A program made the translations under genes and the position numbers. Below, piece by piece: positions 1,137-22,048 of a stretch of 38,593 nucleotides of DNA. Each line of letters opens with the position of its first letter. Positions within the stretch are counted from its first letter, which is position 1. The stretch comes from a virus (lineage: Duplodnaviria > Heunggongvirae > Uroviricota > Caudoviricetes): the IMG/VR virus record IMGVR_UViG_2778261460_000002, one strand, 5' to 3'. The notes beneath the pieces were generated by a model. The model saw only the letters and a program-made list of their open reading frames with translations, did not search any database and was not told where the DNA came from.

Positions 1137-2813
1137 CTAAGCAACATGCAGTTCATCGTTGGCGGAAGTTGCTGCTTTGCGCTCTTGCTCAATCGCCAGT
1201 GACTCTCTATATTCTTTCGCTTCCGCAAACATTGTCCATTGTGCGTTGATGTTCATATCTTCAATAACAGACTTAATTTCTTTAATATTTACGTTGAAAA
1301 ACTCTTTTCGTGAGTTAATTTTATTGACCTGTTTTTCGTTGAAGACTTTATGCAGATGATTTTCTAATGATGGTGCATCATCACTATAAATCATCGCATG
1401 AACATCGAACGAAAAAGGAACACTAGCATCACCGAGTTCACGAACACGATCAAGTGGTTCAAGGCGGCGTGTCATTCCAATTTTATATACATCTTCGCCA
1501 AATGAGCCAATATTACTAATTATATAAACGTGGCCTGATCTAGTTTGTTGAGCCATAGAAATAGCTCGTTGGTTTTTAGCTTCAGCTTCTTCATATTTTA
1601 ACTGTAGTTCAGCTATTTTTTGCTCTAAAGCTAAGCGTTGTTCTTCATTTGCAAGCATAAGCTCTTTTGTTGCTTTATTTATAGCTTGCTGAATAGCTTT
1701 CTCTTCTTTTTCAGCTTCTTTTATCGCTTTTTCATACTCCCTACGAGCTCTTTCCTCTTCACGAAGTTGTTCTTTAATCCTTCTTTGCTCTTCTTTTTCT
1801 TCGAGCATAATTTCATTAACTGCAACTCCCCATTTTAGCTCGTTGAGTCGAGCTTGAAGATAGATGTCACTTATTTTTGCGGACCTAAAGGCAGAACCAT
1901 TGTAATTTACAAGTTGAAACGCATCTTTTATCTCTTGGGAAAGTTTTCCAAAATTGTTGTGTTTGACTTTTGATAAAATACTGTCAACTCTTCCATTGAA
2001 GGCATCTAAAACAAAGTTGATAGCAGTATTACGCCTGTTTTGTTCAACATAATCACACGAAGCAGCTTTATTAGTTTTTATTAATGATTTTGTTAACTCC
2101 CTGGCTTTTTGTAATTCCTTACCTGCATCTGTAAACTCATAATTTTCTGCCAATTCATCGAGAACGCTACGGTTAGGGATGATCCATTCATCACCATAAC
2201 CTTCAATTTTATTTTTCATTGATTTGGCAACTGCTTCATATTTTTCTGCAAACTCTTTAGCTTCATATGCTGAACCAGCAATCTCTTTTGCTCTTTCTTC
2301 TGCATCGGAAATAATTTTCACTGCATTGTCATTAGCATTTGAGATCAGCTCATTTGCTTTACTATTGGCATTATCAAGACGTTCTTTAGCTTTCAGGCGT
2401 GCATCGCGAGCGTCTTTAGTAATTGCTATAGCTTCGCTATTAGCGTTGCTTATTTTTATCTGAGCTTGATAATTTGCTTCGTTTACTGTCTTAGCAGCCT
2501 TTATTTGGGCTTCTTCTATTTTTTGCCTGGCTATTGAGTCTGCATTTTTTATCTTATTCTCTGCTTCCATCACTGCGCTGTGCAATTCTACGTATTGCCA
2601 TAATGGCGCAGCTCGTCCTTCAAGCTCTGATAGATCTCGTACAGTCTGTGCTAATTCTTCTTGATTTTCTTTCAGTTGGTTGGAAAGGGCTATGTTGTTA
2701 GCTGTCAAGGTATTTATAGCCGCTTTATGTTTTTTGCTTTGCTTAAATAATATTACAGCTAGAATGGGGGCGAGAAATGCTAATAAGAATATAACGATGG
2801 AAAATGAATTCAT
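1137..2813 (-). CDS. Membrane-anchored coiled-coil protein with C-terminal T5orf172 (GIY-YIG-like) domain; DUF4041-type architecture; candidate anti-phage/moron gene
   Basis: 558-aa ORF. N-terminal hydrophobic helix (SIVIFLLAFLAPILAVILF), long E/K/A/Q-rich coiled-coil region, C-terminal segment GHVYIISNIGSFGEDVYKIGMTRRLEPLDRVRELG typical of T5orf172. AT-rich relative to the phage backbone. Start codon 20 nt downstream of the cI stop with a GGA Shine-Dalgarno, same strand as cI and int. Confidence 0.7.
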   Translation of the reverse strand: MNSFSIVIFLLAFLAPILAVILFKQSKKHKAAINTLTANNIALSNQLKENQEELAQTVRDLSELEGRAAPLWQYVELHSAVMEAENKIKNADSIARQKIEEAQIKAAKTVNEANYQAQIKISNANSEAIAITKDARDARLKAKERLDNANSKANELISNANDNAVKIISDAEERAKEIAGSAYEAKEFAEKYEAVAKSMKNKIEGYGDEWIIPNRSVLDELAENYEFTDAGKELQKARELTKSLIKTNKAASCDYVEQNRRNTAINFVLDAFNGRVDSILSKVKHNNFGKLSQEIKDAFQLVNYNGSAFRSAKISDIYLQARLNELKWGVAVNEIMLEEKEEQRRIKEQLREEERARREYEKAIKEAEKEEKAIQQAINKATKELMLANEEQRLALEQKIAELQLKYEEAEAKNQRAISMAQQTRSGHVYIISNIGSFGEDVYKIGMTRRLEPLDRVRELGDASVPFSFDVHAMIYSDDAPSLENHLHKVFNEKQVNKINSRKEFFNVNIKEIKSVIEDMNINAQWTMFAEAKEYRESLAIEQERKAATSANDELHVA

Positions 2814-2833: not shown

Positions 2834-3430
2834 TTAATTTGAAACTATTGTACTTCTTATACAAGCAACTACTTCAATATCAGAAAATGCACATTCAAAG
2901 CTATTCTCTGTACTTGTAATTTTAATCATACCTTTTGGAAGCTTTGTGATTTTTCGAATGGAATAGGTTCCGTCGATGTTGATTAACCAGTGCCCATCAA
3001 GTACTTCAGAAAATTTTTGATCACAAATGTATGTGACGAGCCCATCCTGAATAACAATTGGTGATGAAAGATTTGCAGGAAGAAATGATGAATCGAAGAC
3101 ATATGAACCATCTTCAATCATTTTGCCTGCGGTAAGGCGAAACTTGGCAAGCTCTTCTGTAGCTGCTGTCAGCGAGCTTTGCTTAAGGCCTTGCCCGGTG
3201 GTTAACCATTTCAGTGAGGTTCCTGTTTCAAGAGCACATTGGATTATCCAGTCTGCAGGAAACGTATCCCGCAAATACCTGTTCGCCAGAGTGCTTTTTG
3301 ATACTTCCAAGTGATCAGCTAAAGCCTGTCGTGTCGTAAAGCCATAAGCTTCGACTAATCGCTCAATCGCAGCCTTACCACCTTTATTGGGATTTATTTT
3401 GATCTCATTTGGGTACTTTGATGTTGACAT
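2834..3430 (-). CDS. cI: Immunity repressor, phage 186 CI-like
   Basis: 198-aa ORF divergent from the apl/cII lytic operon; N-terminal helix-turn-helix-like region, size and position match 186 CI. Confidence 0.7.
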   Translation of the reverse strand: MSTSKYPNEIKINPNKGGKAAIERLVEAYGFTTRQALADHLEVSKSTLANRYLRDTFPADWIIQCALETGTSLKWLTTGQGLKQSSLTAATEELAKFRLTAGKMIEDGSYVFDSSFLPANLSSPIVIQDGLVTYICDQKFSEVLDGHWLINIDGTYSIRKITKLPKGMIKITSTENSFECAFSDIEVVACIRSTIVSN

Positions 3431-4296: not shown

Positions 4297-4497
4297 ATGC
4301 TGACGAAAGAACCATCATTTGCATCGCTGCTGGTAAAACAAAGCCCGGCAATGCACTACGGTCACGGCTGGATCATGGGGGAGGATGGTAAACGCTGGCA
4401 TCCGTGCCGTTCACAGGATGAATTGCTGGCAGAACTATCTACGAAAAAACGGGGGAACAAATGGCTATTGAAGGCGCTGCGGCAACTGTTCCATTAA
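4297..4497 (+). CDS. fil: Fil-like small early protein (186 filamentation protein-like)
   Basis: 66-aa product from ATG 4297 with GAGGTG RBS; position after cII as in 186. Confidence 0.45.
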   Translation: MLTKEPSFASLLVKQSPAMHYGHGWIMGEDGKRWHPCRSQDELLAELSTKKRGNKWLLKALRQLFH

Positions 4498-4802
4498 GCC
4501 CTGGTGAACGCCTGAATGGACTTAATCACATTGCGGAGTTAAGGGCGAAAGTTTTTGGCCTGAATATTGAGTCAGAGCTTGAGCGGTTTATTAAAGATAT
4601 GCGTGATCCACGGGATATCAATAATGAACAAAATAAACGAGCACTGGCTGCCATATTCTTTATGGCAAAAATTCCAGCTGAACGTCATAGCATCAGCATT
4701 AATGAGCTGACCACTGACGAAAAGCGGGAGCTGATTAAAGCAATGAATCATTTTCGTGCAGTGGTGAGCTTATTTCCCAGACGGCTAACCATGCCGAATT
4801 AA
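4461..4802 (+). CDS. Early-region protein of unknown function (186 Dhr-like position)
   Basis: 113-aa ORF in the early operon; function not recognisable from sequence. Confidence 0.4.
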   Translation: MAIEGAAATVPLSPGERLNGLNHIAELRAKVFGLNIESELERFIKDMRDPRDINNEQNKRALAAIFFMAKIPAERHSISINELTTDEKRELIKAMNHFRAVVSLFPRRLTMPN

Positions 4803-4869
4803 CCAACTAATGAAATTAATGGCGTAAACCCGCCGGGCATCCCTTTATCTAAATTCAGGAGAATTGATT

Positions 4870-5103
4870 ATGCGTAATATTGAAACCCTCACGACTAAAA
4901 CCGGACCGGATGACGCAGGGCTTAATATTTTACTGACAGAGGCTCGTCTGGAAGAACGCCGGGCAAGGGCTGAAGCAATGGCAGCTCGCCTTGATAGCCT
5001 GGCGTGTCATATCTCATCCCGTCAGCTAAACCACGTGGAAGCGGCAGAACTGCTGCGTGTGACTGCTGAAGCAATCCAGAACGAAGCGCAGGAGATCCAC
5101 TAA
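4870..5103 (+). CDS. Small early-region protein, unknown function
   Basis: 77-aa product from ATG 4870 with AGGAG RBS at 4856-4860. Confidence 0.4.
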   Translation: MRNIETLTTKTGPDDAGLNILLTEARLEERRARAEAMAARLDSLACHISSRQLNHVEAAELLRVTAEAIQNEAQEIH

Positions 5104-5330
5104 TGGCTGATGCAATGGATCTCGTACAGCAGCGCGTTGAAGAAGAACGCCAGCGCCATATCCGTGCTGCCCGTGCCAAAACGCCGGGCGTGTCCCGCGT
5201 GCTTTGCGTTGAGTGTGAAGCGCCAATTCCGCCAGCACGCCGCCGTGCCATTCCGGGTGTGCAGCTTTGCATTACATGTCAGGAAATCGCAGAGCTGAAA
5301 GGCAAACATTACAACGGAGGTGCTGTATGA
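5103..5330 (+). CDS. TraR/DksA-family C4 zinc-finger protein
   Basis: 75 aa with CVEC-x17-CITC zinc-finger spacing; start overlaps the upstream stop (TAATG). Confidence 0.55.
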   Translation: MADAMDLVQQRVEEERQRHIRAARAKTPGVSRVLCVECEAPIPPARRRAIPGVQLCITCQEIAELKGKHYNGGAV

Positions 5331-6184
5331 GCACCATCTTGAAATGGGCGGGAAATAAAACCGCCGTAATGTCCGAACTGAAAAAACATCTTCCTGCTGG
5401 TCCGCGACTAGTTGAACCTTTCGCGGGTTCCTGTGCTGTGATGATGGAGACGGATTATCCCTGCTATCTGGTTGCGGATATTAATCCTGATTTAATCAAC
5501 CTCTATAAAAAGGTTGCCGCTGATTGTGAATCGTTTATATCTCGCGCCAAAGTTTTATTTGAGATCGCAAACAGGGAGGTGGCTTATTACAACATAAGGC
5601 AGGAGTTTAATTACTCAACTGAAATTACTGATTTCATGAAAGCGGTATATTTCCTGTATCTCAATCGTCACGGTTACCGTGGGTTATGTCGCTATAACAA
5701 GAGCGGGCATTTCAACATTCCCTACGGTAATTATAAAAATCCGTATTTCCCTGAAAAAGAAATTCGCGCTTTTGCAGAAAAAGCCCAGCGAGCAACGTTT
5801 ATCTGCGCCAGCTTTGATGAAACGCTGGCGATGTTGAAGGCGGGGGATGTGGTGTATTGCGATCCGCCTTATGACGGTACGTTTTCCGGCTATCACGCTG
5901 ACGGCTTTACTGAAGATGACCAGTATCACCTGGCATCCGTTCTTGAACATCGGTCATCAGAAGGACATCCGGTCATTGTTTCTAACAGTGACACATCCCT
6001 GATCCGTTCGCTGTATCGCAATTTTACTCACCACTATATCAAGGTAAAACGCAGCATCGGCGTAGCAGCTGGTGAGAGTAAATCAGCAACAGAAATCATT
6101 GCTGTTTCCGGGCCGCGCTGCTGGGTGGGATTTGATTATTCGCGTGGCGTGGATAGTTCTGCCGTGTACGGAGTACGTGCATGA
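5327..6184 (+). CDS. dam: DNA adenine methyltransferase (Dam-like, N6-adenine, probable GATC specificity)
   Basis: 285-aa product from ATG 5327 ([11 protein letters not shown]...); N-terminal AdoMet-binding region (EPFAGSCAV) and catalytic DPPY motif; ATGA overlap with the upstream stop. Confidence 0.75.
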
Positions 6185-8595
6185 GCCATGCCGATATGAG
6201 CAACTGCTGCGGCTTTAACGAGGCTGCCGCATCGTTCTCATGGAACAGTCCGAAAAAGGCCATTAACCCTTATCTGGACCCGGCGGAAGTTGCGCCGGTT
6301 TCTGCGCTTTCAAACCTGATCACTCTGTACGCTGCCGATAACGAGCAGGAACAACTGCGCCGCGAGGCACTGAGTGATCAGGTCTGGGAGCGTTATTTCT
6401 TTAATGAATCCCGTGATCCTGTCCAACGCGAAATAGAGCAGGATAAGCTCATTAGCCGGGCAAAGTTGGCGCATGAGCAGCAGCGTTTTAACCCGGACAT
6501 GGTCATTCTGGCAGACGTCAGCGCCCAGCCCTCCCATATCAGCAAGCCGCTGATGCAACGTATTGAATACTTCAGCAGCCTGGGCAGGCCAAAGGCTTAT
6601 TCCCGCTATTTACGTGAGACGATTAAGCCATGTCTGGAACGACTGGAGCATGTACGCGACAGCCAGCTATCTGCATCTTTTCGTTTTATGGCAAGCCATG
6701 TAGGGCTGGACGGCCTGCTGATTCTGCCTGAAATGAGTCAGGATCAGGTGAAACGCCTGTCTACCCTTGTCGCTGCGCATATGAGCATGTGCCTTGATGC
6801 AGCTTGTGGTGATTTGTATGCCACCGATGACGTTAAGCCAGAAGAAATCCGCAAGACATGGGAAAAGGTGGCAGCGGAAACCCTGCGTCTGGATGTCATC
6901 CCGCCTGCGTTTGAGCAACTCCGTCGGAAAAGAAACCGCCGTAAACCCGTGCCCTATGAACTCATTCCGGGTTCGCTGGCGCGTATGTTGTGCGCCGACT
7001 GGTGGTACCGGAAATTATGGAAAATGCGTTGCGAATGGCGGGAAGAGCAGTTGCGTGCTGTCTGCCTGGTCAGCAAAAAAGCATCTCCCTATGTCAGCTA
7101 TGAAGCCGTGATGCATAAACGTGAGCAGCGCCGCAAGTCACTGGAGTTTTTCCGTTCTCATGAACTGGTGAACGAAGAGGGCGACACGCTGGATATGGAA
7201 GACGTGGTAAACGCCAGCAGCAGCAACCCGGCGCACCGCCGCAATGAGATGATGGCCTGTGTTAAAGGTCTGGAGCTTATCGCGGAAATGCGCGGTGACT
7301 GCGCCGTTTTCTACACCATTACCTGTCCGTCACGTTTCCATTCCACGCTCAATAACGGCAGACCAAACCCAACCTGGACAAATGCGACGGTAAGACAAAG
7401 CAGCGATTATCTGGTCGGCATGTTTGCTGCATTTCGTAAGGCGATGCACAAAGCCGGGTTGCGCTGGTATGGCGTGCGGGTGGCTGAGCCGCATCATGAC
7501 GGTACAGTTCACTGGCACCTGTTGTGTTTCATGCGCAAAAAAGACCGCCGCGCCATTACTGCATTGTTGCGTAAGTTTGCCATCCGTGAAGACCGCGAGG
7601 AACTGGGTAATAACACTGGTCCACGCTTTAAATCTGAGCTGATAAACCCGCGCAAAGGAACGCCGACAAGCTACATCGCGAAATACATCAGTAAGAACAT
7701 TGACGGGCGTGGTCTGGCTGGCGAGATCAGCAAGGAAACGGGTAAATCCCTGCGTGATAACGCTGAATACGTTAATGCCTGGGCGTCTCTGCATCGTGTT
7801 CAGCAATTCCGCTTCTTTGGTATTCCGGGACGTCAGGCTTACCGTGAACTTCGCTTGCTGGCTGGTCAGGCGGCAAGGCAACAGGGTGACAAAAAAGCAG
7901 GTGCGCCGGTACTGGATAACCCGCGTCTTGATGCCATTCTGGCTGCTGCTGATGCTGGTTGTTTTGCCACCTACATCATGAAGCAGGGCGGCGTACTGGT
8001 TCCCCGCAAATATCACCTCATCAGAACCGCTTATGAAATCAACGAAGAGCCAACCGCCTATGGCGATCACGGTATTCGTATTTATGGCATCTGGTCACCC
8101 ATTGCAGAGGGCAAGATCTGCACTCATGCAGTGAAGTGGAAAATGGTTCGTAAGGCCGTTGACGTTCAGGAGGCGGCAGCCGACCAGGGCGCTTGCGCCC
8201 CTTGGACTCGTGGCAATAACTGTCCCCTTGCTGAAAATTTGAACCAACAGGAGAAAGATAAATCAGCTGATGGAGACACCAGAACGGACATTACCCGCAT
8301 GGATGACAAGGAGTTGCACGATTACCTGCACAGTATGAGCAAAAAAGAGCGCCGGGAACTGGCAGCAAGGTTACGCCAGGTGAAGCCGAAAAGGCGTAAA
8401 GACTACAAACAGCGAATTACAGATCATCAGCATCAGCAGCTCGTCTATGAACTGAAGTCCAGAGGATTTGATGGCAGCGAGAAAGAGGTCGATTTACTCC
8501 TTCGCGGTGGCAGTATTCCGTCAGGAGCAGGCCTGCGTATTTTCTATCGGAACCAGCGTTTGCAGGAAGATGATAAGTGGCGGAACCTGTATTAA
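6181..8595 (+). CDS. Replication initiation protein A (P2 gpA / 186 replication endonuclease-like)
   Basis: 804-aa ORF after the early operon; size and position match P2 A; ATGA overlap with dam stop. Confidence 0.8.
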
Positions 8596-8689
8596 TTACG
8601 CGGGTTAACAATTCGTGCTCTTAATAATACCAGGCATATCAGGCTGATGAACGTAAAAAAACGTTTTACATCAGTAAGATTATTATATA

Positions 8690-8705
8690 CTGTAAATATA
8701 AACAG
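8690..8705 (+). promoter_or_regulatory. LexA (SOS) box CTGTAAATATAAACAG
   Basis: Exact match to the CTGT-N8-ACAG LexA operator consensus, about 45 nt upstream of the tum-like start, inside an AT-rich promoter-like region. Confidence 0.7.
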
Positions 8706-8748
8706 TGTTTATGCATACAGTATTGTTTGTGGTGTCATAGGAGGAAAG

Positions 8749-8937
8749 ATGCAGGACTATTTTTTGGAGTCTTTGAAGCTCCAGCGCATTGATTTTTTTC
8801 TTAAGCTTGTAGCGGCTAGTGAGTGTAGTGATGAAGAGAAGGGGCTGGCTCTGCAGTGGGTTTCTGAATTGACTGATGAACTCATGGCAAAAATCAGAAG
8901 CCACGAATACAACCGCTCAATGGATGTCATCAGCTGA
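8749..8937 (+). CDS. Small SOS-regulated protein, candidate Tum-like antirepressor
   Basis: 62-aa product from ATG 8749 with AGGAGG RBS (8739-8744); directly downstream of the LexA box; position matches the 186 tum locus. Confidence 0.45.
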   Translation: MQDYFLESLKLQRIDFFLKLVAASECSDEEKGLALQWVSELTDELMAKIRSHEYNRSMDVIS

Positions 8938-8947
8938 GGTGACTTTT

Positions 8948-9181
8948 ATGCGCATTGAAATAATGATCGATAAAGAGCAGAAGATTAGCCAGTCTACCCT
9001 GGACGCTCTGGAGTCCGAGCTTTACCGCAACCTGCAACCCATCTATCCCAAGACAGCTATCCGCATCCGTAAAGGGTCGGCAAACGGCGTTGAGCTGAGT
9101 GGCTTAAAGCTTGATGAAGACAAAAAGCGGGTGATGGAAATTATGCAGCAGGTTTGGGAAGACGACAGATGGCTGCACTAA
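8948..9181 (+). CDS. DinI-family protein
   Basis: 77-aa product MRIEIMIDKEQK...IMQQVWEDDRWLH aligns by eye with E. coli DinI (MRIEVTIAK ... ILQETWE ... W); second gene in the LexA-boxed operon. Confidence 0.65.
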   Translation: MRIEIMIDKEQKISQSTLDALESELYRNLQPIYPKTAIRIRKGSANGVELSGLKLDEDKKRVMEIMQQVWEDDRWLH

Positions 9182-9254
9182 GGAACGTTCCTGATGTAAG
9201 AACTTGATTCTGACGTCAGCAAGGTTGAACAACGAGAGTAGCGAGGCGTTAGCC

Positions 9255-9515
9255 ATGGGTAAAAAAGACAGTAATCACCAGATTATTTATCGGGGCCAGG
9301 TGCTGGAACGGTTTACCCCTGGCGGCTGGGTCTTCTTTCAACGCCCAAAGGAGTGTGGCGGAGGTTTTTAGTTGGGCCGCACCTATGAAGACTGCTTCTG
9401 GCTTGAGCTGGAATTCCCCGTTTCGCTATATGACGGCCTGGAGTTTTTGATGGAAGTCACCAGGGTAGAGCAGAGAAGTGATGAGGTTGACGCGAATTAT
9501 TCCCTGTTTGATTAA
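9255..9515 (+). pseudogene. Small ORF interrupted by an in-frame amber codon (TAG at 9369-9371); probable pseudogene
   Basis: ATG at 9255 opens 38 codons, TAG, then the same frame stays open for 47 more codons to TAA at 9513-9515. Confidence 0.3.
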
Positions 9516-9563: not shown

Positions 9564-10175
9564 ATGGATTTAGTCTTTAAAATTCTGGCTTCGTTGGGTG
9601 GGGTGTCTTTTGTTGCATCTGGCATATTTGTTTGGATCGGGAAAGTTTATTTAGAAAGATATAAGTCGCGGCTAAACAAAGATATTGCTGAATTTCAATC
9701 ACAACTGAGTGCAACTAATGAAAGAATAAAGGCTAAGTTAGACAATTCTGTTTATGTAACGAAAGCGTATTTTGATAAGGAGTTATCAGCATATAGTCTC
9801 ATTTGGAATTCGATGTTTGAAACCAGAGAAAGCGTGCTTAAGCTGAGGCCTGCGCTGGATCATTTTGACCCCAACGAACCATTTGAAGAGAGAAAATTTA
9901 GAAGGTTGAAAGTTTTTTTCGATGCATTTAATACTTTTGTTACAAGTGTTGAGTCTAACAAACCGTTCATCTCACCAGAGGTTTATATAATCTTGGACCG
10001 TTTCCGGAAGGAATGCCTTTCAGAGTCAATATCGTTTCAGCATGGCGATCCAGAATTTGACTGGCAAAATTATTGGAAAGAGGCAGAGTTGAACCGTACA
10101 ACCATCACCAAGCTTTTTGATGAGACGTGTGATGCAATTCGAGACAGGATGCACACATTAACTGTGGTTACGTAG
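9564..10175 (+). CDS. Single-pass membrane protein of unknown function; accessory cargo in the old/tin-equivalent position
   Basis: 203-aa ORF with N-terminal hydrophobic helix (ILASLGGVSFVASGIFVWIG) and a soluble domain with no recognisable motifs; AT-rich; own promoter and terminator. Confidence 0.6.
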   Translation: MDLVFKILASLGGVSFVASGIFVWIGKVYLERYKSRLNKDIAEFQSQLSATNERIKAKLDNSVYVTKAYFDKELSAYSLIWNSMFETRESVLKLRPALDHFDPNEPFEERKFRRLKVFFDAFNTFVTSVESNKPFISPEVYIILDRFRKECLSESISFQHGDPEFDWQNYWKEAELNRTTITKLFDETCDAIRDRMHTLTVVT

Positions 10176-10266
10176 TTTTCCAAAAAGTCTCGATGCCCGC
10201 TTTGGCGATTGTGCATGTCTATGCCGCATGAATCCGCATGATCGTTTGAGGATCGTTTTAGCTGAG

Positions 10267-10290
10267 GCCCGCTAGGAATGGCGGGCTTTT
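10267..10290 (+). terminator. Rho-independent terminator (gcccgc-loop-gcgggc-tttt)
   Basis: Perfect 6-bp GC stem with 8-nt loop followed by TTTT, about 90 nt downstream of the 203-aa gene. Confidence 0.55.
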
Positions 10291-10335
10291 GCTTATGTCA
10301 TGCAGGCGCATGAAAACCACTACATAAAGCGGGCA

Positions 10336-10354
10336 GGCGTGGCGGGGATACGAG
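10336..10354. other. Probable cos site (cohesive-end region) GGCGTGGCGGGGATACGAG
   Basis: Matches from memory the start of the P2/186 cohesive end (GGCG[A/T]GGCGGGGA...), with a GCGCGCT tract after it as in P2; lies between the replication side and the portal gene. Not verified by alignment. Confidence 0.45.
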
Positions 10355-10367
10355 CGCGCGCTCATGG

Positions 10368-10396
10368 TTGAATTAATGAAATTATGGTGTTAAATA
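10368..10396 (+). promoter_or_regulatory. Putative sigma70 promoter for the 232-aa gene: -35 TTGAAT (10368-10373), 17-bp spacer, extended -10 TGtTAAATA (10388-10396)
   Basis: Read directly from the sequence; about 70 nt upstream of the ATG at 10465, which has a GGGAGGAG RBS. Confidence 0.45.
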
Positions 10397-10464: not shown

Positions 10465-11163
10465 ATGGTTATGTTAGTGGATGACTGTCCACGATGTGGA
10501 TCACAAAAAATAGCGTTTGATGTTAATGGGCTGAATTGCACTAGGGTTTACAATGCATTGGGCGGGGGTAAAACATACGAGTACGAGGTCTATTGTGTTT
10601 GCCGAGAGTGTCATAAAACGACAATGTTTCTTTGCAGACCTTTAACGAAAAATAAAACTTTAGATGGCTATAATTGGAAAAGTGGAATATTCGGCTTAAA
10701 GGAAGTTGCAGAGGTTGTTAGGCCTATATCACCGGCAGACTTAGCAGTAGAGGAGCCACCAGAGTTCTTACCTGAGCATATCAATAGTGCATATGAGGAA
10801 GGGGCGAAATGTTTGGCTATAGGTTGTTATAATGCAGCAGCAACCATGTTTAGGCTTTGCCTTGATTATGCCACAAAAGGACTTCTTCCTGATGGGGAGC
10901 AAGGGCCTGCGCAAAAAATAAGGAGAAGCCTAGGGTTAAGAATGGAGTGGTTATTTGATAATCATCTACTGCCTGAAGCTTTAAGGGAACTAGCTGAATG
11001 CGTTAAAGATGACGGAAATGATGGAGCGCATGAAGGTATTTTGGATAAAGCTGCTGCTGAGGATCTTGAAGATTTTACCTATCTTTTTTTAGAACGGCTT
11101 TACACTGAACCTCAACGCCTTATCGAAGCCAAGACAAGGCGTGAACAAAGAAGAAACAAATAA
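10465..11163 (+). CDS. Zinc-ribbon protein with DUF4145/HEPN-like C-terminal domain; accessory cargo between cos and the portal gene
   Basis: 232-aa ORF; N-terminal CPRC-x35-CRECH Cys cluster; C-terminal helical region with GNDGAHEG resembling the RN..AHG motif of DUF4145 as recalled (arginine replaced). AT-rich, own promoter. Confidence 0.55.
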   Translation: MVMLVDDCPRCGSQKIAFDVNGLNCTRVYNALGGGKTYEYEVYCVCRECHKTTMFLCRPLTKNKTLDGYNWKSGIFGLKEVAEVVRPISPADLAVEEPPEFLPEHINSAYEEGAKCLAIGCYNAAATMFRLCLDYATKGLLPDGEQGPAQKIRRSLGLRMEWLFDNHLLPEALRELAECVKDDGNDGAHEGILDKAAAEDLEDFTYLFLERLYTEPQRLIEAKTRREQRRNK

Positions 11164-11171
11164 GTTCGGAA

Positions 11172-12209
11172 TTATTCTTCTGAAAGAATATAGGGCGTAA
11201 ATTTAATCACTTCTTCGCCCAGCCAGTCGTTCAGCTCTTGTAGCCTTTTTTGCAAGGGCGTTAATTCATTACGTACAAATACGCGACTGGCCTTCTCCAC
11301 ATCCCCAAATCCCCCAACATTATTAGGCATTATCCCCATCATTTGTGGCGGTACACGGTGCGCAGCCATCATGTCATCGCGGCTGACATTTTTGATATTC
11401 AGAAACTCATCCTTCGCCGCGACTTCTGACAGAGGAATGATCTGAAGGCCGTCCTTTTTGCCGTTCGGCGAGTACATAAACAGGTTACGGAAATTGCCAG
11501 GTCCTTTGGCGCTTTTCATCGCATTACGGAGGTTGTTTACATCCTCCTGGTTCTGCGCGGCGTCGGTCATGTACATGATGAAGCCTGCGTGGCTGCCGTT
11601 AATGTAATACTTGCGGCGGAACAGCGTGGCGGACTCGTTGAGTAGGGCTGACGGAATGGCAGAAAGATAACCGGGCAGGCCGTAGATCTCCTGGTTGATA
11701 TCCGGTTCCATCAGGTGAAAAATGCTGCCTTTCGTGAACTGATACGGTTGCGTGGTCATGCCGTATTGCACAAACCAGTAGGTATCCAGGTCTAATCCGC
11801 GTCGGGTGTATTTTGCCAGGGCAGGTTCAAGGGCGATAACTTCACCGAAGCGGTTCGTGCGTTTCTCCAGGTAGGCGTTACCAAAAACCAGATAGTCCTG
11901 CACAAAACGCGAAAAAGCCTGCTGGCTGAGCAGCGGGTGAGGGATGTAGGTGCTGGTCAGAATGTTGCACTTTACTGCAATCGGGGAACTATGATGCACG
12001 GCAGCGCGGAAGGTGCGCGCCAGTCCGTCAAAGCTGACGGGCGGCTCATACCAGCGGTCCATCTGTACGCATTCCACATAATCCAGCAGTTCTCGGCGGT
12101 CCAGAACAGGAACGGGATCGCCGAAGCTGAATGCTTCGGCTGTAGTTTGACTTTTAAGCTGGATCTGTTTCGTCGCCGCAGCGCGGTTCTTCTTACTCTT
12201 TCCCATCAA
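11172..12209 (-). CDS. Portal protein (P2 gpQ-like)
   Basis: 345-aa ORF adjacent to and overlapping the terminase gene start; first gene after cos as in P2. Confidence 0.8.
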   Translation of the reverse strand: MMGKSKKNRAAATKQIQLKSQTTAEAFSFGDPVPVLDRRELLDYVECVQMDRWYEPPVSFDGLARTFRAAVHHSSPIAVKCNILTSTYIPHPLLSQQAFSRFVQDYLVFGNAYLEKRTNRFGEVIALEPALAKYTRRGLDLDTYWFVQYGMTTQPYQFTKGSIFHLMEPDINQEIYGLPGYLSAIPSALLNESATLFRRKYYINGSHAGFIMYMTDAAQNQEDVNNLRNAMKSAKGPGNFRNLFMYSPNGKKDGLQIIPLSEVAAKDEFLNIKNVSRDDMMAAHRVPPQMMGIMPNNVGGFGDVEKASRVFVRNELTPLQKRLQELNDWLGEEVIKFTPYILSEE

Positions 12210-19944: not shown

Positions 19945-20796
19945 TTATTTCATTTCGTGTGGCATATTTATGGCTTTAATTTTTTCGTGGTAATGATTAA
20001 ACTCAATATGAGCATTGGTAAAATTAGATTCAAATGTATTCATTAAATTGGAATATAATGATTCATATGATAAGGATACTTTTTTTCCATTTTTTTCTGC
20101 AGTTGTGCTAATGTACCTATGTACTGCAGAAAAAAGAAAATGACCTCTAAGCCACTTTCTGTATTCTATCGATTTTGATTTGAAAGATGAATCGATGTTA
20201 TCTGGTTCCACACCTAATTTTTCAATGATGGTGTTTTTGTAACTCGTGATTTTTTGCTCGCAAATTTCATTTGATTTTCTAGATTTCATGAAACGATCTG
20301 CACTGTCACCAATAACTGAAATGCCTTTTCTATAAATATGATTGTATATATCAAGTTTTATTAGGGGTTCCATTTTGGTATAAAAGTCTTCTGTCCAAGA
20401 ATCGACGTTGACATCGTTCATTATCTTTTGAGGTAATTTTCCGAGAGTTTTTATTGCCTTATATATGCCTGTTTTGTCAATAAACGTGTTTTCGATGGAG
20501 TGCCCATAAGTTTTTACAATGCGACTATCAGCGTTTTCCTCATTTTCAAATGTAGTGAAGTCTGCATCACATGCAATTATAATTTGAAGATCTTCATCAG
20601 TAACTCTATCAATATATTTTTTTAATTCTTCACAGCCGCCAACATCTTTGATTTCAACCTTTAATGAACTAGCTTTATTAAAGATGATTTCCCAAAAGCA
20701 AATATCATCTGGGCCTTCAACATAAACCATGGCTTCAGCTTGGTAAAATAAATTCATTACATTTTCTGCTTCGGCAGAATAATGGAAATCATCCAT
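19945..20796 (-). CDS. DUF4435/Toprim-like nuclease, PARIS AriB-like (OLD-family Toprim fold)
   Basis: Open frame extends to 20880 (311 aa). The ATG at 20796 overlaps the upstream stop as ATGGATGA, so 283 aa is more likely. Toprim-like acidic motifs YVEGPDD and IIACDADF. Very AT-rich. Confidence 0.55.
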   Translation of the reverse strand: MDDFHYSAEAENVMNLFYQAEAMVYVEGPDDICFWEIIFNKASSLKVEIKDVGGCEELKKYIDRVTDEDLQIIIACDADFTTFENEENADSRIVKTYGHSIENTFIDKTGIYKAIKTLGKLPQKIMNDVNVDSWTEDFYTKMEPLIKLDIYNHIYRKGISVIGDSADRFMKSRKSNEICEQKITSYKNTIIEKLGVEPDNIDSSFKSKSIEYRKWLRGHFLFSAVHRYISTTAEKNGKKVSLSYESLYSNLMNTFESNFTNAHIEFNHYHEKIKAINMPHEMK

Positions 20797-22048
20797 GAAC
20801 CAATTTCTCCATATCAAAGATTGCATTTCGATATTTAGAAGCCACTTCTGGTGAATGCGTAGCGGCGATAATTTGCGCATTAGGATTAAGTTGTTTGATT
20901 GCAGGTATTATTTTTCGTTGCCATGCAATATGTAGCGATAATTCTGGTTCATCAGTAAGATAGATGAAAGGTTTGTTTTGCTGTAGCAAAGTTTCAATAA
21001 AAAGAATTAATAGCTGTTTTTCACCAGACGATAAATTACTATGGCTAATCGGCCCATGCTCGTTTTCTATTACTAGCTCACCGGAGATAAAATTAAATTT
21101 TTTATCGGTTATGAACTCATGTAATGTTTCTAAAAATAGATTTATAGGAAGAAATATGTTTTTTATTTTCTCCTCGGATTTTAAAGACATCTTTATAATT
21201 CTTTGCGTCTTTCGTAATGCCTCAAATGATCTGTAATCTACATTTAAAATATTTCTGTTATTTTTTTCTGCAAGTCGTAATTCTTCAAATGTTTTGGCAA
21301 TAGATTCAACGTGAAAGTTAATCTTCTTTCTGACATCACTATCAAAAGCTCCAAGCTGAGAATATGCAGCTATTAAATTTCTACGTTCTTTTTCTTTATC
21401 AAAAGAAAAGTTAAATGTGTCATCGATACCATCTTCTTTACTATAAAGAATAGAAGCAAGAACCTCTTTCTGTAATATTGCAGAAACATCACGAGCTCTT
21501 TGTGATAAATAAAGTTGATATTTTGTTAGGTTCTGCAATAATTGTTCTAATCGGTAATCAACAGGGTTGATTAATTTTGAGCCATATTTGTCTCTGATTT
21601 CAAAATCTTCACCGCTTCTAAGTCGGTAAACTGATAGAGAAGATAAAGCAACTAATTTATCTAACTCTAATTTAAGTTTTTCAACGTCTTCCTGATATTT
21701 TCTCCTCATATAAATAGGTAGTCTACGATCTTCAAAGGATCTGATAATATATTTCTTTCTAGAAATTGTATATTCAAACGTAGGCAAAGCTTTAGTTATG
21801 TCAAATTTACTCACAACTTTTATTGTTTTAGTTTTGCTTCCTTCTTTTATTTTTATTGTTACATTATCAAAACTATTCTCATTTAGTGATTCGAGTTCTA
21901 ATGCCAGAACTGAGTGAAGAATATTCATAAAGGTTGTTTTACCGGTCCCATTTCGACCAATAATAATATTTACATCTTCATTAAATGAACATGATGCATT
22001 TAGTCTTCCCCAAAAACCTTCAATCTTGACACTAGATAATCTAAACAT
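20789..22048 (-). CDS. ABC-type ATPase (AAA_15/AAA_21-like), PARIS AriA-like
   Basis: 419 aa; Walker A GRNGTGKTT, Walker B-like IYLTDEPE, H-loop AATHSPEV; translationally coupled to the downstream DUF4435 gene. Confidence 0.6.
   Translation of the reverse strand: MFRLSSVKIEGFWGRLNASCSFNEDVNIIIGRNGTGKTTFMNILHSVLALELESLNENSFDNVTIKIKEGSKTKTIKVVSKFDITKALPTFEYTISRKKYIIRSFEDRRLPIYMRRKYQEDVEKLKLELDKLVALSSLSVYRLRSGEDFEIRDKYGSKLINPVDYRLEQLLQNLTKYQLYLSQRARDVSAILQKEVLASILYSKEDGIDDTFNFSFDKEKERRNLIAAYSQLGAFDSDVRKKINFHVESIAKTFEELRLAEKNNRNILNVDYRSFEALRKTQRIIKMSLKSEEKIKNIFLPINLFLETLHEFITDKKFNFISGELVIENEHGPISHSNLSSGEKQLLILFIETLLQQNKPFIYLTDEPELSLHIAWQRKIIPAIKQLNPNAQIIAATHSPEVASKYRNAIFDMEKLVHG

What the first reader, a model, noticed from the sequence alone, without database searches (positions are those of the whole stretch)
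10465..11163. Zinc-ribbon plus DUF4145/HEPN-like protein between cos and the portal gene
A 232-aa protein with an N-terminal four-cysteine cluster (CPRC ... CRECH) and a helical C-terminal domain whose GNDGAHEG segment resembles the conserved motif of DUF4145, which I recall is grouped with HEPN-type RNase folds common in abortive-infection and toxin systems. It is AT-rich and has its own near-consensus promoter with an extended -10. It lies only about 300 bp downstream of the 203-aa membrane protein, so the two may be partners of one system split across cos or two independent single-gene systems.
Basis: partly seen in the sequence, partly recalled or inferred. Interest (0 to 1): 0.8.

Follow-up and report, generated by a model that had tools for sequence, protein, structure and literature searches.

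The report
RAZR-like zinc-ribbon HEPN defence gene
A P2-type prophage of E. coli carries, between its cos site and its portal gene, one stand-alone gene for a zinc-ribbon plus HEPN-RNase protein that is a distant cousin of the recently solved anti-phage RNase RAZR (PD-T7-4); it is most likely a single-gene abortive-infection defence, which is the expected kind of cargo at this known hotspot.

Summary

The closest characterised relative is RAZR/PD-T7-4, a zinc-finger plus DUF4145-HEPN RNase activated by phage ring proteins. The HEPN halves are homologous (hhalign 97%, E 1e-10). RAZR's catalytic R146 and H154 align with K181 and H189 here.

It is not a RAZR orthologue. It scores 26 bits on the PD-T7-4 model, against 339 bits for true RAZR. 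The zinc-ribbon domains do not align, and this family has about 28 extra residues between the two domains.

The 203-aa neighbour is not a partner. Of 5426 complete E. coli genomes, 46 carry the DUF4145 gene, 52 carry the 203-aa gene and only 25 carry both. A hairpin terminator and cos lie between the two genes.

My verdict is a sister family of RAZR: plausible as a defence gene, untested, and of moderate interest. It may be the already validated "DS-38".

The parts
10465..11163 (+). Gene for the 232-aa zinc-ribbon + DUF4145/HEPN protein (WP_000245245.1; Cartapus gp01)
   Evidence: ORF list; RefSeq and phage annotation; 603 word-index homologues and 1802 50%-identity cluster representatives at E<=1e-3
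10465..10731 (+). N-terminal beta-rich sensor-like domain (residues 1-89). It holds a Cys4 zinc ribbon (C8/C11 and C46/C49), a long variable beta-hairpin (residues 16-45), and a roughly 28-residue extension (residues 61-89) that RAZR lacks.
   Evidence: Near-invariant Cys. AF2 strands 3-6, 16-30, 36-45, 52-59 and 82-88, pLDDT about 80-90. This is the most variable part of the protein. No significant PDB fold match.
10732..10773 (+). Conserved linker PADxxxxxPPExLP (residues 90-103). It aligns with the RAZR linker IPAAGNVELPNPDMP, which contains AGN68-70.
   Evidence: hhalign A1 vs A3 starts here; BLASTP; the RAZR linker is described in PMC13017515
10774..11118 (+). HEPN (DUF4145) helical domain, residues 104-218
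11005..11031 (+). Putative active-site motif K181-D-D-G-N-D-G-A-H189. K181 aligns with RAZR R146 and H189 with RAZR H154.
   Evidence: Residue-by-residue alignment to 9y9c_OA. Position 181 is R in 66 and K in 40 of 117 representatives; H189 is present in 113/117. RAZR R146A and H154A abolish defence (PMC13017515).
10450..10456 (+). Shine-Dalgarno sequence GGAGGAG, 8 nt before the ATG
   Evidence: read from the sequence
10368..10395 (+). Promoter-like element TTGAAT-N16-(TG)TTAAAT. It is weak evidence and was not called by the consensus scan.
10304..10362 (.). cos site of the P2-like phage. It separates this gene from the cargo on the left-hand side of the hotspot.
   Evidence: The Cartapus record begins here and annotates bases 1-59 as a putative cos site
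10260..10293 (+). Strong hairpin followed by a U-rich tail. It looks like the terminator of the upstream 203-aa gene and so puts the two genes in separate transcription units.
   Evidence: RNA fold -22.9 kcal/mol, z -4.1, 0 of 200 shuffles fold as well

Best explanation
This is a stand-alone, prophage-borne abortive-infection defence gene of the RAZR type: an N-terminal Cys4 zinc-ribbon sensor fused to a C-terminal DUF4145-family HEPN RNase.

I propose the following mechanism by analogy with RAZR. The protein is made in the lysogen from its own weak promoter and stays harmless. When a foreign phage infects, the fast-evolving zinc-ribbon hairpin binds a phage protein, possibly a large ring such as a portal or a recombinase. 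This repositions the HEPN dimers so that K181 and H189 form an active RNase site. Non-specific RNA cleavage then stops translation and aborts the infection.

Shown here: the domain architecture, conservation of the Cys4 and [R/K]xxGNxxAH residues, HEPN homology to RAZR with the catalytic residues aligned, the variable-sensor/conserved-effector pattern, single-gene mobility, and the hotspot location.

Inferred only: defence activity, RNase activity, oligomerisation, and the nature of the trigger.

For: 2. Homology to RAZR. The PADLOC PD-T7-4 model hits at E 1.2e-6, and 87 of 117 family representatives hit it. The family profile hits PDB 9y9c (RAZR) at E 6.5e-5, with R146 aligned to K181 and H154 to H189. 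hhalign between the two families gives 97% probability, E 9.8e-11, over residues 100-224 here and 76-193 in RAZR.

3. Architecture. Both are single proteins of about 220-230 aa with two CxxC knuckles at the N-terminus (C8/C11/C46/C49 here, C16/C19/C49/C52 in RAZR).

4. Evolutionary pattern. As in RAZR, the hairpin between the knuckles is the most variable region and the HEPN domain the most conserved. Among P2-like prophages, ZFD identity falls from 79% to 34% while HEPN falls from 95% to 70% and terminase from 97% to 65%.

5. Context. The gene sits in P2 defence hotspot 1, between replication gene A and portal gene Q (Vassallo 2022 and Rousset 2022). It is AT-rich. It is present in only 46 of 5426 complete E. 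coli genomes, whereas 1260 matched the 2-kb query that spans the cos/portal region. The same prophage also carries PARIS and a PD-Lambda-1 homologue.

6. Single-gene behaviour. In E. coli E41, Klebsiella and Pantoea it is the only sizeable cargo gene of the hotspot; only DinI and small hypothetical ORFs (58-85 aa) lie between gene A and it. Distant homologues sit next to integrases or transposases.

7. Published precedent. RAZR is a single-protein Abi RNase (PMC13017515). A second E. coli ZnF+HEPN protein, DS-38, whose HEPN but not ZnF aligns with PD-T7-4, was validated as a defence (bioRxiv 10.1101/2025.01.08.631726).
Against: No phenotype has been measured for this protein. It is not a PD-T7-4 member by score: 26 bits, against 339 bits for bona fide RAZR.

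The zinc-ribbon domain cannot be aligned to RAZR's by profile methods. The ZFD-only model has no significant PDB fold match. The sensing mode may therefore differ.

The canonical HEPN arginine is a lysine here (K181), which could lower or change catalysis, and the active-site loop 184-187 is modelled with pLDDT below 50.

A portal-sensing RNase encoded next to the phage's own portal gene would have to ignore that portal. This is unexplained.

The synteny with the portal gene is conserved across genera. This could also be read as evidence for a phage-intrinsic role.
Confidence: 0.7

Rival explanations
1. It is one half of a two-gene system with the upstream 203-aa membrane/coiled-coil protein, for example a membrane effector plus an RNase sensor, split by cos.
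For: The two genes are 289 bp apart on the same strand. Both are AT-rich and lie in the same hotspot. They co-occur in 25 complete E. coli genomes.
Against: The DUF4145 gene is in 46 genomes, the 203-aa gene in 52, and both in only 25. Left of cos, the DUF4145 gene is found with a 433-aa protein, a DUF2971 protein, two other hypotheticals, HicAB, or no sizeable cargo gene at all. The 203-aa gene is also found with a PIN-domain protein instead. A strong hairpin terminator and cos lie between the two genes. Distant homologues have no such neighbour.
Confidence: 0.04
2. It is a phage-lifecycle protein that works with the adjacent portal, terminase or cos machinery, such as a packaging accessory or DNA-binding zinc-ribbon protein, as the PHROG label 'DNA binding protein' suggests.
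For: Its position directly convergent with the portal gene and next to cos is conserved in P2-like prophages of Escherichia, Klebsiella, Pantoea and Serratia, down to 56% identity. HEPN divergence roughly tracks the phage backbone. phrog_1305 scores E 1e-52 and is labelled 'DNA binding protein'.
Against: The gene is absent from most of the E. coli genomes that matched the 2-kb query spanning the cos/portal region (46 vs 1260). Another E. coli P2-like prophage has a PIN-domain gene in that slot instead. Homologues occur outside prophages, for example in the Nitrospira chromosome, beside IS elements in Oceanimonas, and beside an integrase in Pseudomonas. HEPN catalytic residues are conserved. 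The gene is AT-rich and on the opposite strand to the flanking portal and terminase genes, as is typical of a moron.
Confidence: 0.08
3. It is a toxin or addiction-type HEPN RNase that stabilises the prophage, or a host-shutoff RNase used by the phage during lytic growth. In this view it is not a sensor of foreign phages.
For: HEPN RNases are common toxins (PMC3710099). In Serratia a HicAB pair lies immediately upstream.
Against: No conserved adjacent antitoxin-sized partner is seen. The related RAZR is non-toxic when overproduced alone. The fast-evolving N-terminal domain fits target recognition in an arms race better than a fixed housekeeping target.
Confidence: 0.08
4. It is a catalytically impaired HEPN protein, because of the R-to-K change, that acts non-enzymatically, for example as a decoy or binder of ring proteins.
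For: K181 replaces the arginine that is essential in RAZR (R146A abolishes defence). The enterobacterial P2 clade has K at this position throughout.
Against: The K/R exchange is conservative, and R is found at this position in 66 of 117 family representatives. H189, N185, G184, E112 and R130 stay near-invariant, as expected under selection for catalysis.
Confidence: 0.05

Closest known systems
RAZR / PD-T7-4 (ring-activated zinc-finger RNase; E. coli UMB1727; PDB 9Y9C, 9Y6U; Zhang et al., Nature 2026, PMC13017515; Vassallo et al. 2022, PMC9519451)
   Same: Both are single proteins of about 220-230 aa with an N-terminal Cys4 zinc ribbon and a C-terminal DUF4145-type HEPN domain. The HEPN domains are homologous (hhalign 97%, E 1e-10), and the catalytic R146/H154 align with K181/H189. 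The PAxxxxExP linker is shared. In both, the ZFD hairpin is variable and the HEPN domain conserved. Both are carried on mobile elements.
   Different: Identity is only about 24%. The score on the PD-T7-4 model is 26 bits, against 339 bits for true RAZR. The ZFDs are not alignable. There are about 28 extra residues between the second knuckle and the linker. Lys replaces the catalytic Arg. The gene sits in the P2 cos-portal slot rather than overlapping an integrase. Trigger and oligomeric state are unknown.
DS-38 of the DefensePredictor screen (bioRxiv 10.1101/2025.01.08.631726)
   Same: DS-38 is described as an E. coli HEPN + zinc-finger protein, validated as anti-phage, whose HEPN but not Zn-finger domain aligns with PD-T7-4. 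That is the relationship found here.
   Different: Its identity could not be checked, because no accession or sequence is held. DS-38 may be this family or another ZnF-HEPN family.
Other DUF4145/HEPN defence proteins: BxaP (BREX-associated, PMC10799925), Ishtar1 (anti-plasmid, bioRxiv 10.64898/2026.07.06.735840), and DUF4145 fusions to restriction and helicase modules (PMC3710099)
   Same: They share the DUF4145-family HEPN effector module used in defence against mobile elements.
   Different: The partner domains differ (HEAT-like, a beta-rich C-terminal domain, REase or helicase). None has the N-terminal zinc-ribbon architecture.
P2 old and tin, and the other cargo of the P2 gpA-gpQ hotspot (Rousset et al. 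2022, PMC9122126)
   Same: Same genomic niche and the same logic: prophage-encoded genes that exclude other phages.
   Different: The proteins are unrelated. In this window the P2-hotspot-type cargo (the 203-aa gene) lies left of cos, whereas this gene occupies a separate slot right of cos, directly against the portal gene.

Membership tests
Pfam DUF4145 (PF13643), HEPN superfamily | Profile match above the curated gathering score | tested here: met
   30.3 bits against a cutoff of 23.1, E 4.5e-7, residues 114-203
Pfam DUF4145 (PF13643), HEPN superfamily | All-alpha HEPN helical-bundle fold | tested here: met
Pfam DUF4145 (PF13643), HEPN superfamily | Catalytic R-x(4-7)-H motif | tested here: inconclusive
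   H189 is present (113/117 in the family). The Arg position holds Lys (K181); relatives have R in 66 and K in 40 of 117. The substitution is conservative, and its effect on activity is unknown.
Pfam DUF4145 (PF13643), HEPN superfamily | RNase activity | not testable with these tools
   Needs biochemistry
RAZR / PD-T7-4 | Single protein with an N-terminal Cys4 zinc ribbon and a C-terminal DUF4145 HEPN domain | tested here: met
   C8/C11/C46/C49 are near-invariant; HEPN domain at residues 104-218
RAZR / PD-T7-4 | Full-length match to the family model (PADLOC PDLC04109) | tested here: not met
   26.1 bits, E 1.2e-6, covering profile positions 39-165 of 211. True RAZR proteins score 337-339 bits over positions 1-209. 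The best score among 117 relatives is E 8.9e-13.
RAZR / PD-T7-4 | HEPN domain homologous to RAZR's, with the catalytic residues aligned | tested here: met
   hhalign 97%, E 9.8e-11. Profile against PDB 9y9c_OA gives E 6.5e-5, with R146 aligned to K181 and H154 to H189.
RAZR / PD-T7-4 | Zinc-finger domain homologous to the RAZR ZFD (the trigger-binding surface) | tested here: not met
   No ZFD alignment in hhalign or HMMER. The ZFD-only model has no PDB match at E<1. Caveat: I could not confirm that the 9Y9C coordinates are in the fold library.
RAZR / PD-T7-4 | [quoted passage not shown] | tested here: met
   Mean column entropy is 2.3-2.6 in residues 16-45 and 61-89, against 0.7-0.9 in the HEPN domain. 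RAZR shows the same pattern: 2.2 against 0.33. Inter-prophage identities agree.
RAZR / PD-T7-4 | Activation by assembly around phage ring proteins, higher-order oligomers, and an Abi phenotype | not testable with these tools
   Requires phage assays, escape mutants and cryo-EM
Cargo of P2 defence hotspot 1 | Located between replication gene A and portal gene Q of a P2-like prophage, with variable occupancy | tested here: met
   gpA at 6181-8595 and portal at 11172-12209(-). 46 of 5426 genomes carry the gene, whereas 1260 matched the 2-kb query spanning the cos/portal region. Alternative occupants are seen.
Two-gene system with the 203-aa protein | Obligate co-occurrence and co-transcription | tested here: not met
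   25 genomes carry both genes, out of 46 and 52 carrying each. A terminator hairpin and cos lie between them.
Type II toxin-antitoxin pair | A conserved adjacent small antitoxin gene | tested here: not met
   No conserved neighbour is seen across loci. HicAB lies nearby only in Serratia and is a complete TA pair of its own.

The most novel reading that the evidence does not exclude
This family may be a separate branch of ring- or assembly-sensing HEPN RNases with a larger, non-RAZR zinc-ribbon sensor. In P2-like phages it has stayed physically linked to the portal gene, while its sensor domain diverges much faster than the phage backbone. The prophage would then carry a sensor tuned to foreign portal or recombinase rings, possibly including those of rival P2-like phages, while staying blind to its own linked portal allele. 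That would be a built-in self/non-self discrimination between portals.
Probability: 0.12. Interest if true: 0.65.

Novelty: new variant of a known kind. Interest (0 to 1): 0.35.

Why it matters
If confirmed, this gene would extend the RAZR principle, a zinc-ribbon sensor that switches on a HEPN RNase, to a second large family. That family has 1802 cluster representatives at E<=1e-3 and a different sensor domain. PADLOC-DB 2.0's PD-T7-4 model scores it at only 26 bits, against about 339 bits for true RAZR.

It would also add one more defence gene to the arsenal of the LF82 prophage Cartapus, alongside PARIS and a PD-Lambda-1 homologue. And it would raise a testable question: how does a phage that makes its own portal ring tolerate a possible ring-sensing suicide RNase?

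It is not a new principle. The gene class, the hotspot and the likely mechanism are all already described.

Tried and rejected
1. Sequence searches of the PDB with the single protein and with the 25-sequence profile found nothing. Only the broader 117-sequence profile reached RAZR (9y9c).

3. The ZFD-only model had no significant PDB neighbour, so I could not show that the ZFD is structurally equivalent to RAZR's. The afdb50 library was unavailable.

4. hhalign with the shallow A1 profile gave only 12.8% probability. The deeper A2 profile gave 97%.

5. I could not obtain the DS-38 accession, because the preprint's supplements are not held. RAZR's supplements are not held either. A search for WP_000245245 in the literature returned nothing.

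6. I tried to map the two Cartapus 'morons' reported as expressed in LF82 lysogens (LF82_783 and LF82_789; PMC9928086) to this gene. The old locus tags are not in the RefSeq table.

7. NCBIfam has no model for either protein.

8. I rejected the two-gene hypothesis on the co-occurrence counts. I rejected a packaging role on the gene's sporadic distribution and its non-phage homologues.

Full report
**What is there**

The window is a P2-like (Peduoviridae) prophage. The 2-kb region around the finding is 99.8-100% identical to E. coli LF82 and other strains. Its left half ends exactly at the right end of the deposited phage genome 'Escherichia phage Cartapus'. In that record the cos site is bases 1-59 and gp01 (162-860) is a 'DUF4145 domain-containing protein'. 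This places cos at window 10304-10362 and gp01 at 10465-11163.

The ORF is 232 aa, with a GGAGGA ribosome-binding site 8 nt upstream. It is convergent with the portal gene Q (11172-12209, minus strand). It lies downstream of replication gene A (6181-8595), a DinI-like gene, two small ORFs and a 203-aa ORF. The region has about 42% GC, against 53-60% in the structural genes.

**Checking the observation**

In 25 homologues down to 48% identity, C8, C11, C46, C49 and the block K181-x-x-G-N-D-G-A-H189 are invariant. In 117 representatives of clusters at 50% identity, the four Cys are present in 107-115, G184 and N185 in 109, and H189 in 113. Pfam DUF4145 is matched above its curated threshold (30.3 against 23.1 bits).

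Only the 'near-consensus extended -10 promoter' is overstated. The consensus scan found no + strand promoter upstream. What can be read is TTGAAT-N16-TTAAAT preceded by TG (10368-10395).

**Fold**

AlphaFold2 with the family alignment gave a confident model (pLDDT 83). The N-terminal part is a beta-rich domain with strands at 3-6, 16-30, 36-45, 52-59 and 82-88, and the two CxxC knuckles sit at the strand ends. The C-terminal part is a helical domain.

**Closest characterised relative**

PADLOC's only hit was PD-T7-4 (E 1.2e-6, 26 bits). PD-T7-4 ('Zn finger-HEPN', E. coli UMB1727) has been renamed RAZR and solved (Nature 2026, PMC13017515). It is a single protein with an N-terminal Cys4 zinc ribbon and a C-terminal DUF4145/HEPN RNase, and it is non-toxic on its own.

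RAZR is activated when its zinc-finger domains bind around roughly 170-Å rings formed by phage portal proteins or by an Erf-like recombinase. It then cleaves RNA non-specifically and aborts infection. R146 and H154 are essential. [quoted passage not shown]

A 117-sequence profile of the present family hits the RAZR chain of PDB 9Y9C (E 6.5e-5). In that alignment RAZR R146 and H154 fall on K181 and H189. I confirmed that the chain is RAZR from its AGN68-70, R146 and H154.

I then retrieved the RAZR family and compared the two families:
- **Profile-profile comparison.** 97% probability, E 9.8e-11, restricted to the HEPN half (residues 100-224 here against 76-193 in RAZR).
- **Pairwise identity.** About 24%.
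- **PD-T7-4 model scores.** True RAZR proteins score 337-339 bits over the full length of the model; this protein scores 26 bits. Of 117 relatives, 87 hit the model, none better than E 8.9e-13.
- **Zinc-ribbon domains.** Both have two CxxC knuckles about 30-35 residues apart. They do not align by profile.
- **Extra residues.** This family has about 28 more residues between the second knuckle and the shared PAxxxxExP linker.
- **ZFD-only model.** pLDDT 80, with no significant PDB neighbour.

The protein therefore works like RAZR at the level of architecture and effector. It is not a member of the PD-T7-4 family as currently modelled. It belongs to a large sister family: 1802 representatives at E<=1e-3 and 223 at E<=1e-30 in the 1.84-billion-protein library.

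The DefensePredictor preprint describes a validated E. coli system, DS-38, as HEPN + zinc finger with only the HEPN aligning to PD-T7-4. That description fits this family. I could not verify identity because no accession is held.

**Catalytic motif**

The canonical HEPN Arg is Lys here (K181). Across the family the position holds R in 66 and K in 40 of 117 representatives. It is an R/K position, and the enterobacterial P2 clade uses K. E112, R130, G184, N185 and H189 are near-invariant and are also conserved in RAZR as E88, R105, G149, N150 and H154. Catalytic competence is likely but not shown. The active-site loop 184-187 is the least confident part of the model.

**One system or two?**

Among 5426 complete E. 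coli genomes, the DUF4145 gene is in 46, the 203-aa gene in 52 and both in 25.

The DUF4145 gene always abuts the portal gene. The cargo left of cos varies:
- a 433-aa hypothetical protein;
- a DUF2971 protein;
- two hypothetical proteins;
- no sizeable cargo gene, only DinI and a small ORF.

The 203-aa gene also occurs with a PIN-domain gene in the right-of-cos slot, and in a degraded non-P2 context. A strong hairpin with a U-rich tail (10260-10293; -22.9 kcal/mol, z -4.1) and cos itself lie between the two genes. They are independent cassettes.

**Wider context**

Homologues at 71%, 56% and 54% identity in Klebsiella, Pantoea and Serratia occupy the same slot against the portal gene of P2-like prophages. 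In the first two, only small ORFs (58-85 aa) lie between gene A and the gene; in Serratia it follows HicAB.

More distant homologues (about 50% identity) are solitary genes:
- next to an integrase in Pseudomonas;
- next to an integrase and IS elements, with an AbiTii-domain gene nearby, in Oceanimonas;
- in a Nitrospira chromosome.

Compared across P2-like prophages, the N-terminal domain diverges much faster than the HEPN domain, the portal or the terminase. ZFD identity is 79, 60, 55, 55, 37 and 34%. HEPN is 95, 90, 77, 81, 70 and 71%. Portal is 88-61% and terminase 97-65%. Column entropy shows the same contrast and mirrors RAZR. This is the signature of a specificity-determining sensor under diversifying pressure attached to a conserved effector.

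The same prophage carries two recognised defence systems in its other AT-rich islands: a PD-Lambda-1 homologue (1137-2813, minus; E 5e-120) and PARIS (AriA 20789-22048, AriB 19945-20880, minus).

**Mechanism proposed**

*Shown:* the architecture, the conserved zinc ligands and [R/K]xxGNxxAH site, HEPN homology to RAZR, the variable sensor with a conserved effector, single-gene mobility, and hotspot residency.

*Inferred by analogy:* the protein is expressed in the lysogen and is inert. Its zinc-ribbon hairpin recognises a protein of an infecting phage. Binding, perhaps on a ring scaffold, repositions the HEPN dimers. RNA cleavage then arrests translation and aborts the infection. I put about 0.7 on 'stand-alone HEPN-RNase defence gene' and only about 0.3 on ring sensing specifically, because the sensor domain differs from RAZR's.

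*Unexplained:* if portals are the triggers, the phage's own portal must be ignored. That portal gene ends 8 bp from this gene.

**Rivals**

- A two-gene system with the 203-aa protein is largely refuted by co-occurrence.
- A packaging or DNA-binding accessory role is suggested by the PHROG label and by the conserved synteny. Against it are the gene's sporadic presence, its replacement by a PIN-domain gene, and its non-phage homologues.
- An addiction or host-shutoff toxin has no conserved partner to support it, and RAZR is non-toxic alone.
- A non-catalytic binder, because of K181, is argued against by the R/K interchange and the otherwise conserved site.

**Novelty and score**

The kind of gene (ZnF-HEPN single-protein Abi), the domain family and the hotspot are all known. 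A validated system matching this description may already exist (DS-38).

What is new is modest:
- a large sister family with a different, larger zinc-ribbon sensor;
- a Lys variant of the HEPN motif;
- a stable 'right-of-cos' slot against the portal gene.

I rate it a new variant of a known kind, interest about 0.35.

Noticed in passing
window 9564-10175 (+): A 203-aa protein with an N-terminal hydrophobic helix and a coiled-coil-like region. It matches phrog_26391 (unknown function) and has no Pfam, PADLOC or NCBIfam family. Some RefSeq genomes mis-annotate it as 'valyl-tRNA synthetase'. It is present in 52 of 5426 E. coli genomes, half of them without the DUF4145 gene, and once with a PIN-domain gene right of cos. 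It is an independent hotspot cassette and an uncharacterised defence candidate in its own right.
   Followed up: partly
window 1137-2813 (-): A 558-aa protein with DUF4041 and T5orf172/MUG113 (GIY-YIG-like) domains. It is a strong homologue of the PD-Lambda-1 defence protein (E 4.7e-120) and lies between the integrase (1-1053) and the CI repressor (2834-3430), in an AT-rich island (35-39% GC).
   Followed up: partly
window 19945-22048 (-): A PARIS-like pair in the second P2 hotspot (29-34% GC): AriA-like AAA_15/AAA_21 ATPase (20789-22048) and AriB-like DUF4435 (19945-20880). The two listed ORFs overlap by about 90 nt, so the AriB start is probably an internal codon.
   Followed up: partly
window 10260-10293 (+): A strong GC-rich hairpin (11-bp core stem, -22.9 kcal/mol, z -4.1) with a U-rich tail, just upstream of cos. 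The terminator scan did not call it. It probably terminates the hotspot transcript from the left-hand side.
   Followed up: yes
L005 (NZ_CP069571.1) 4918-5979: In another E. coli P2-like prophage the slot between cos and the portal gene holds a 353-aa PIN-domain protein instead of the DUF4145 gene. The right-of-cos position is therefore a variable cargo site of its own.
   Followed up: no
window 8647-9515 (+): Between gene A and the cargo genes lie a small conserved phrog_698 ORF, a DinI-like gene (8876-9181; Pfam DinI E 1e-23) and an 86-aa hypothetical ORF (about 9255-9515). The last recurs in some hotspots with different downstream cargo (L002, L005, L015). It may be a conserved hotspot leader or regulator.
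   Followed up: no
L018 (Serratia, CAMKJG010000001.1) 4342-4937: A HicA/HicB toxin-antitoxin pair sits immediately upstream of the DUF4145 homologue in a Serratia P2-like prophage, after a 753-aa protein with no Pfam hit. This is another example of stacked cargo at this hotspot.
   Followed up: no
window 11172-12209 (-) versus L002-L004: Within E. coli the portal protein differs more between these prophages (85-88% identity, with different N-termini) than the adjacent terminase does (95-97%). I did not test whether portal alleles co-vary with the neighbouring zinc-ribbon sensor alleles beyond what phylogeny predicts.
   Followed up: partly
PMC9928086, Table 1 (LF82 lysogen transcriptome): Two Cartapus 'morons' (LF82_783 'putative exonuclease' and LF82_789 'hypothetical protein') are reported as expressed 15-fold and 7-fold above background in the lysogen. 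I could not map the old locus tags to window genes, so I do not know whether the DUF4145 gene is one of them.
   Followed up: partly
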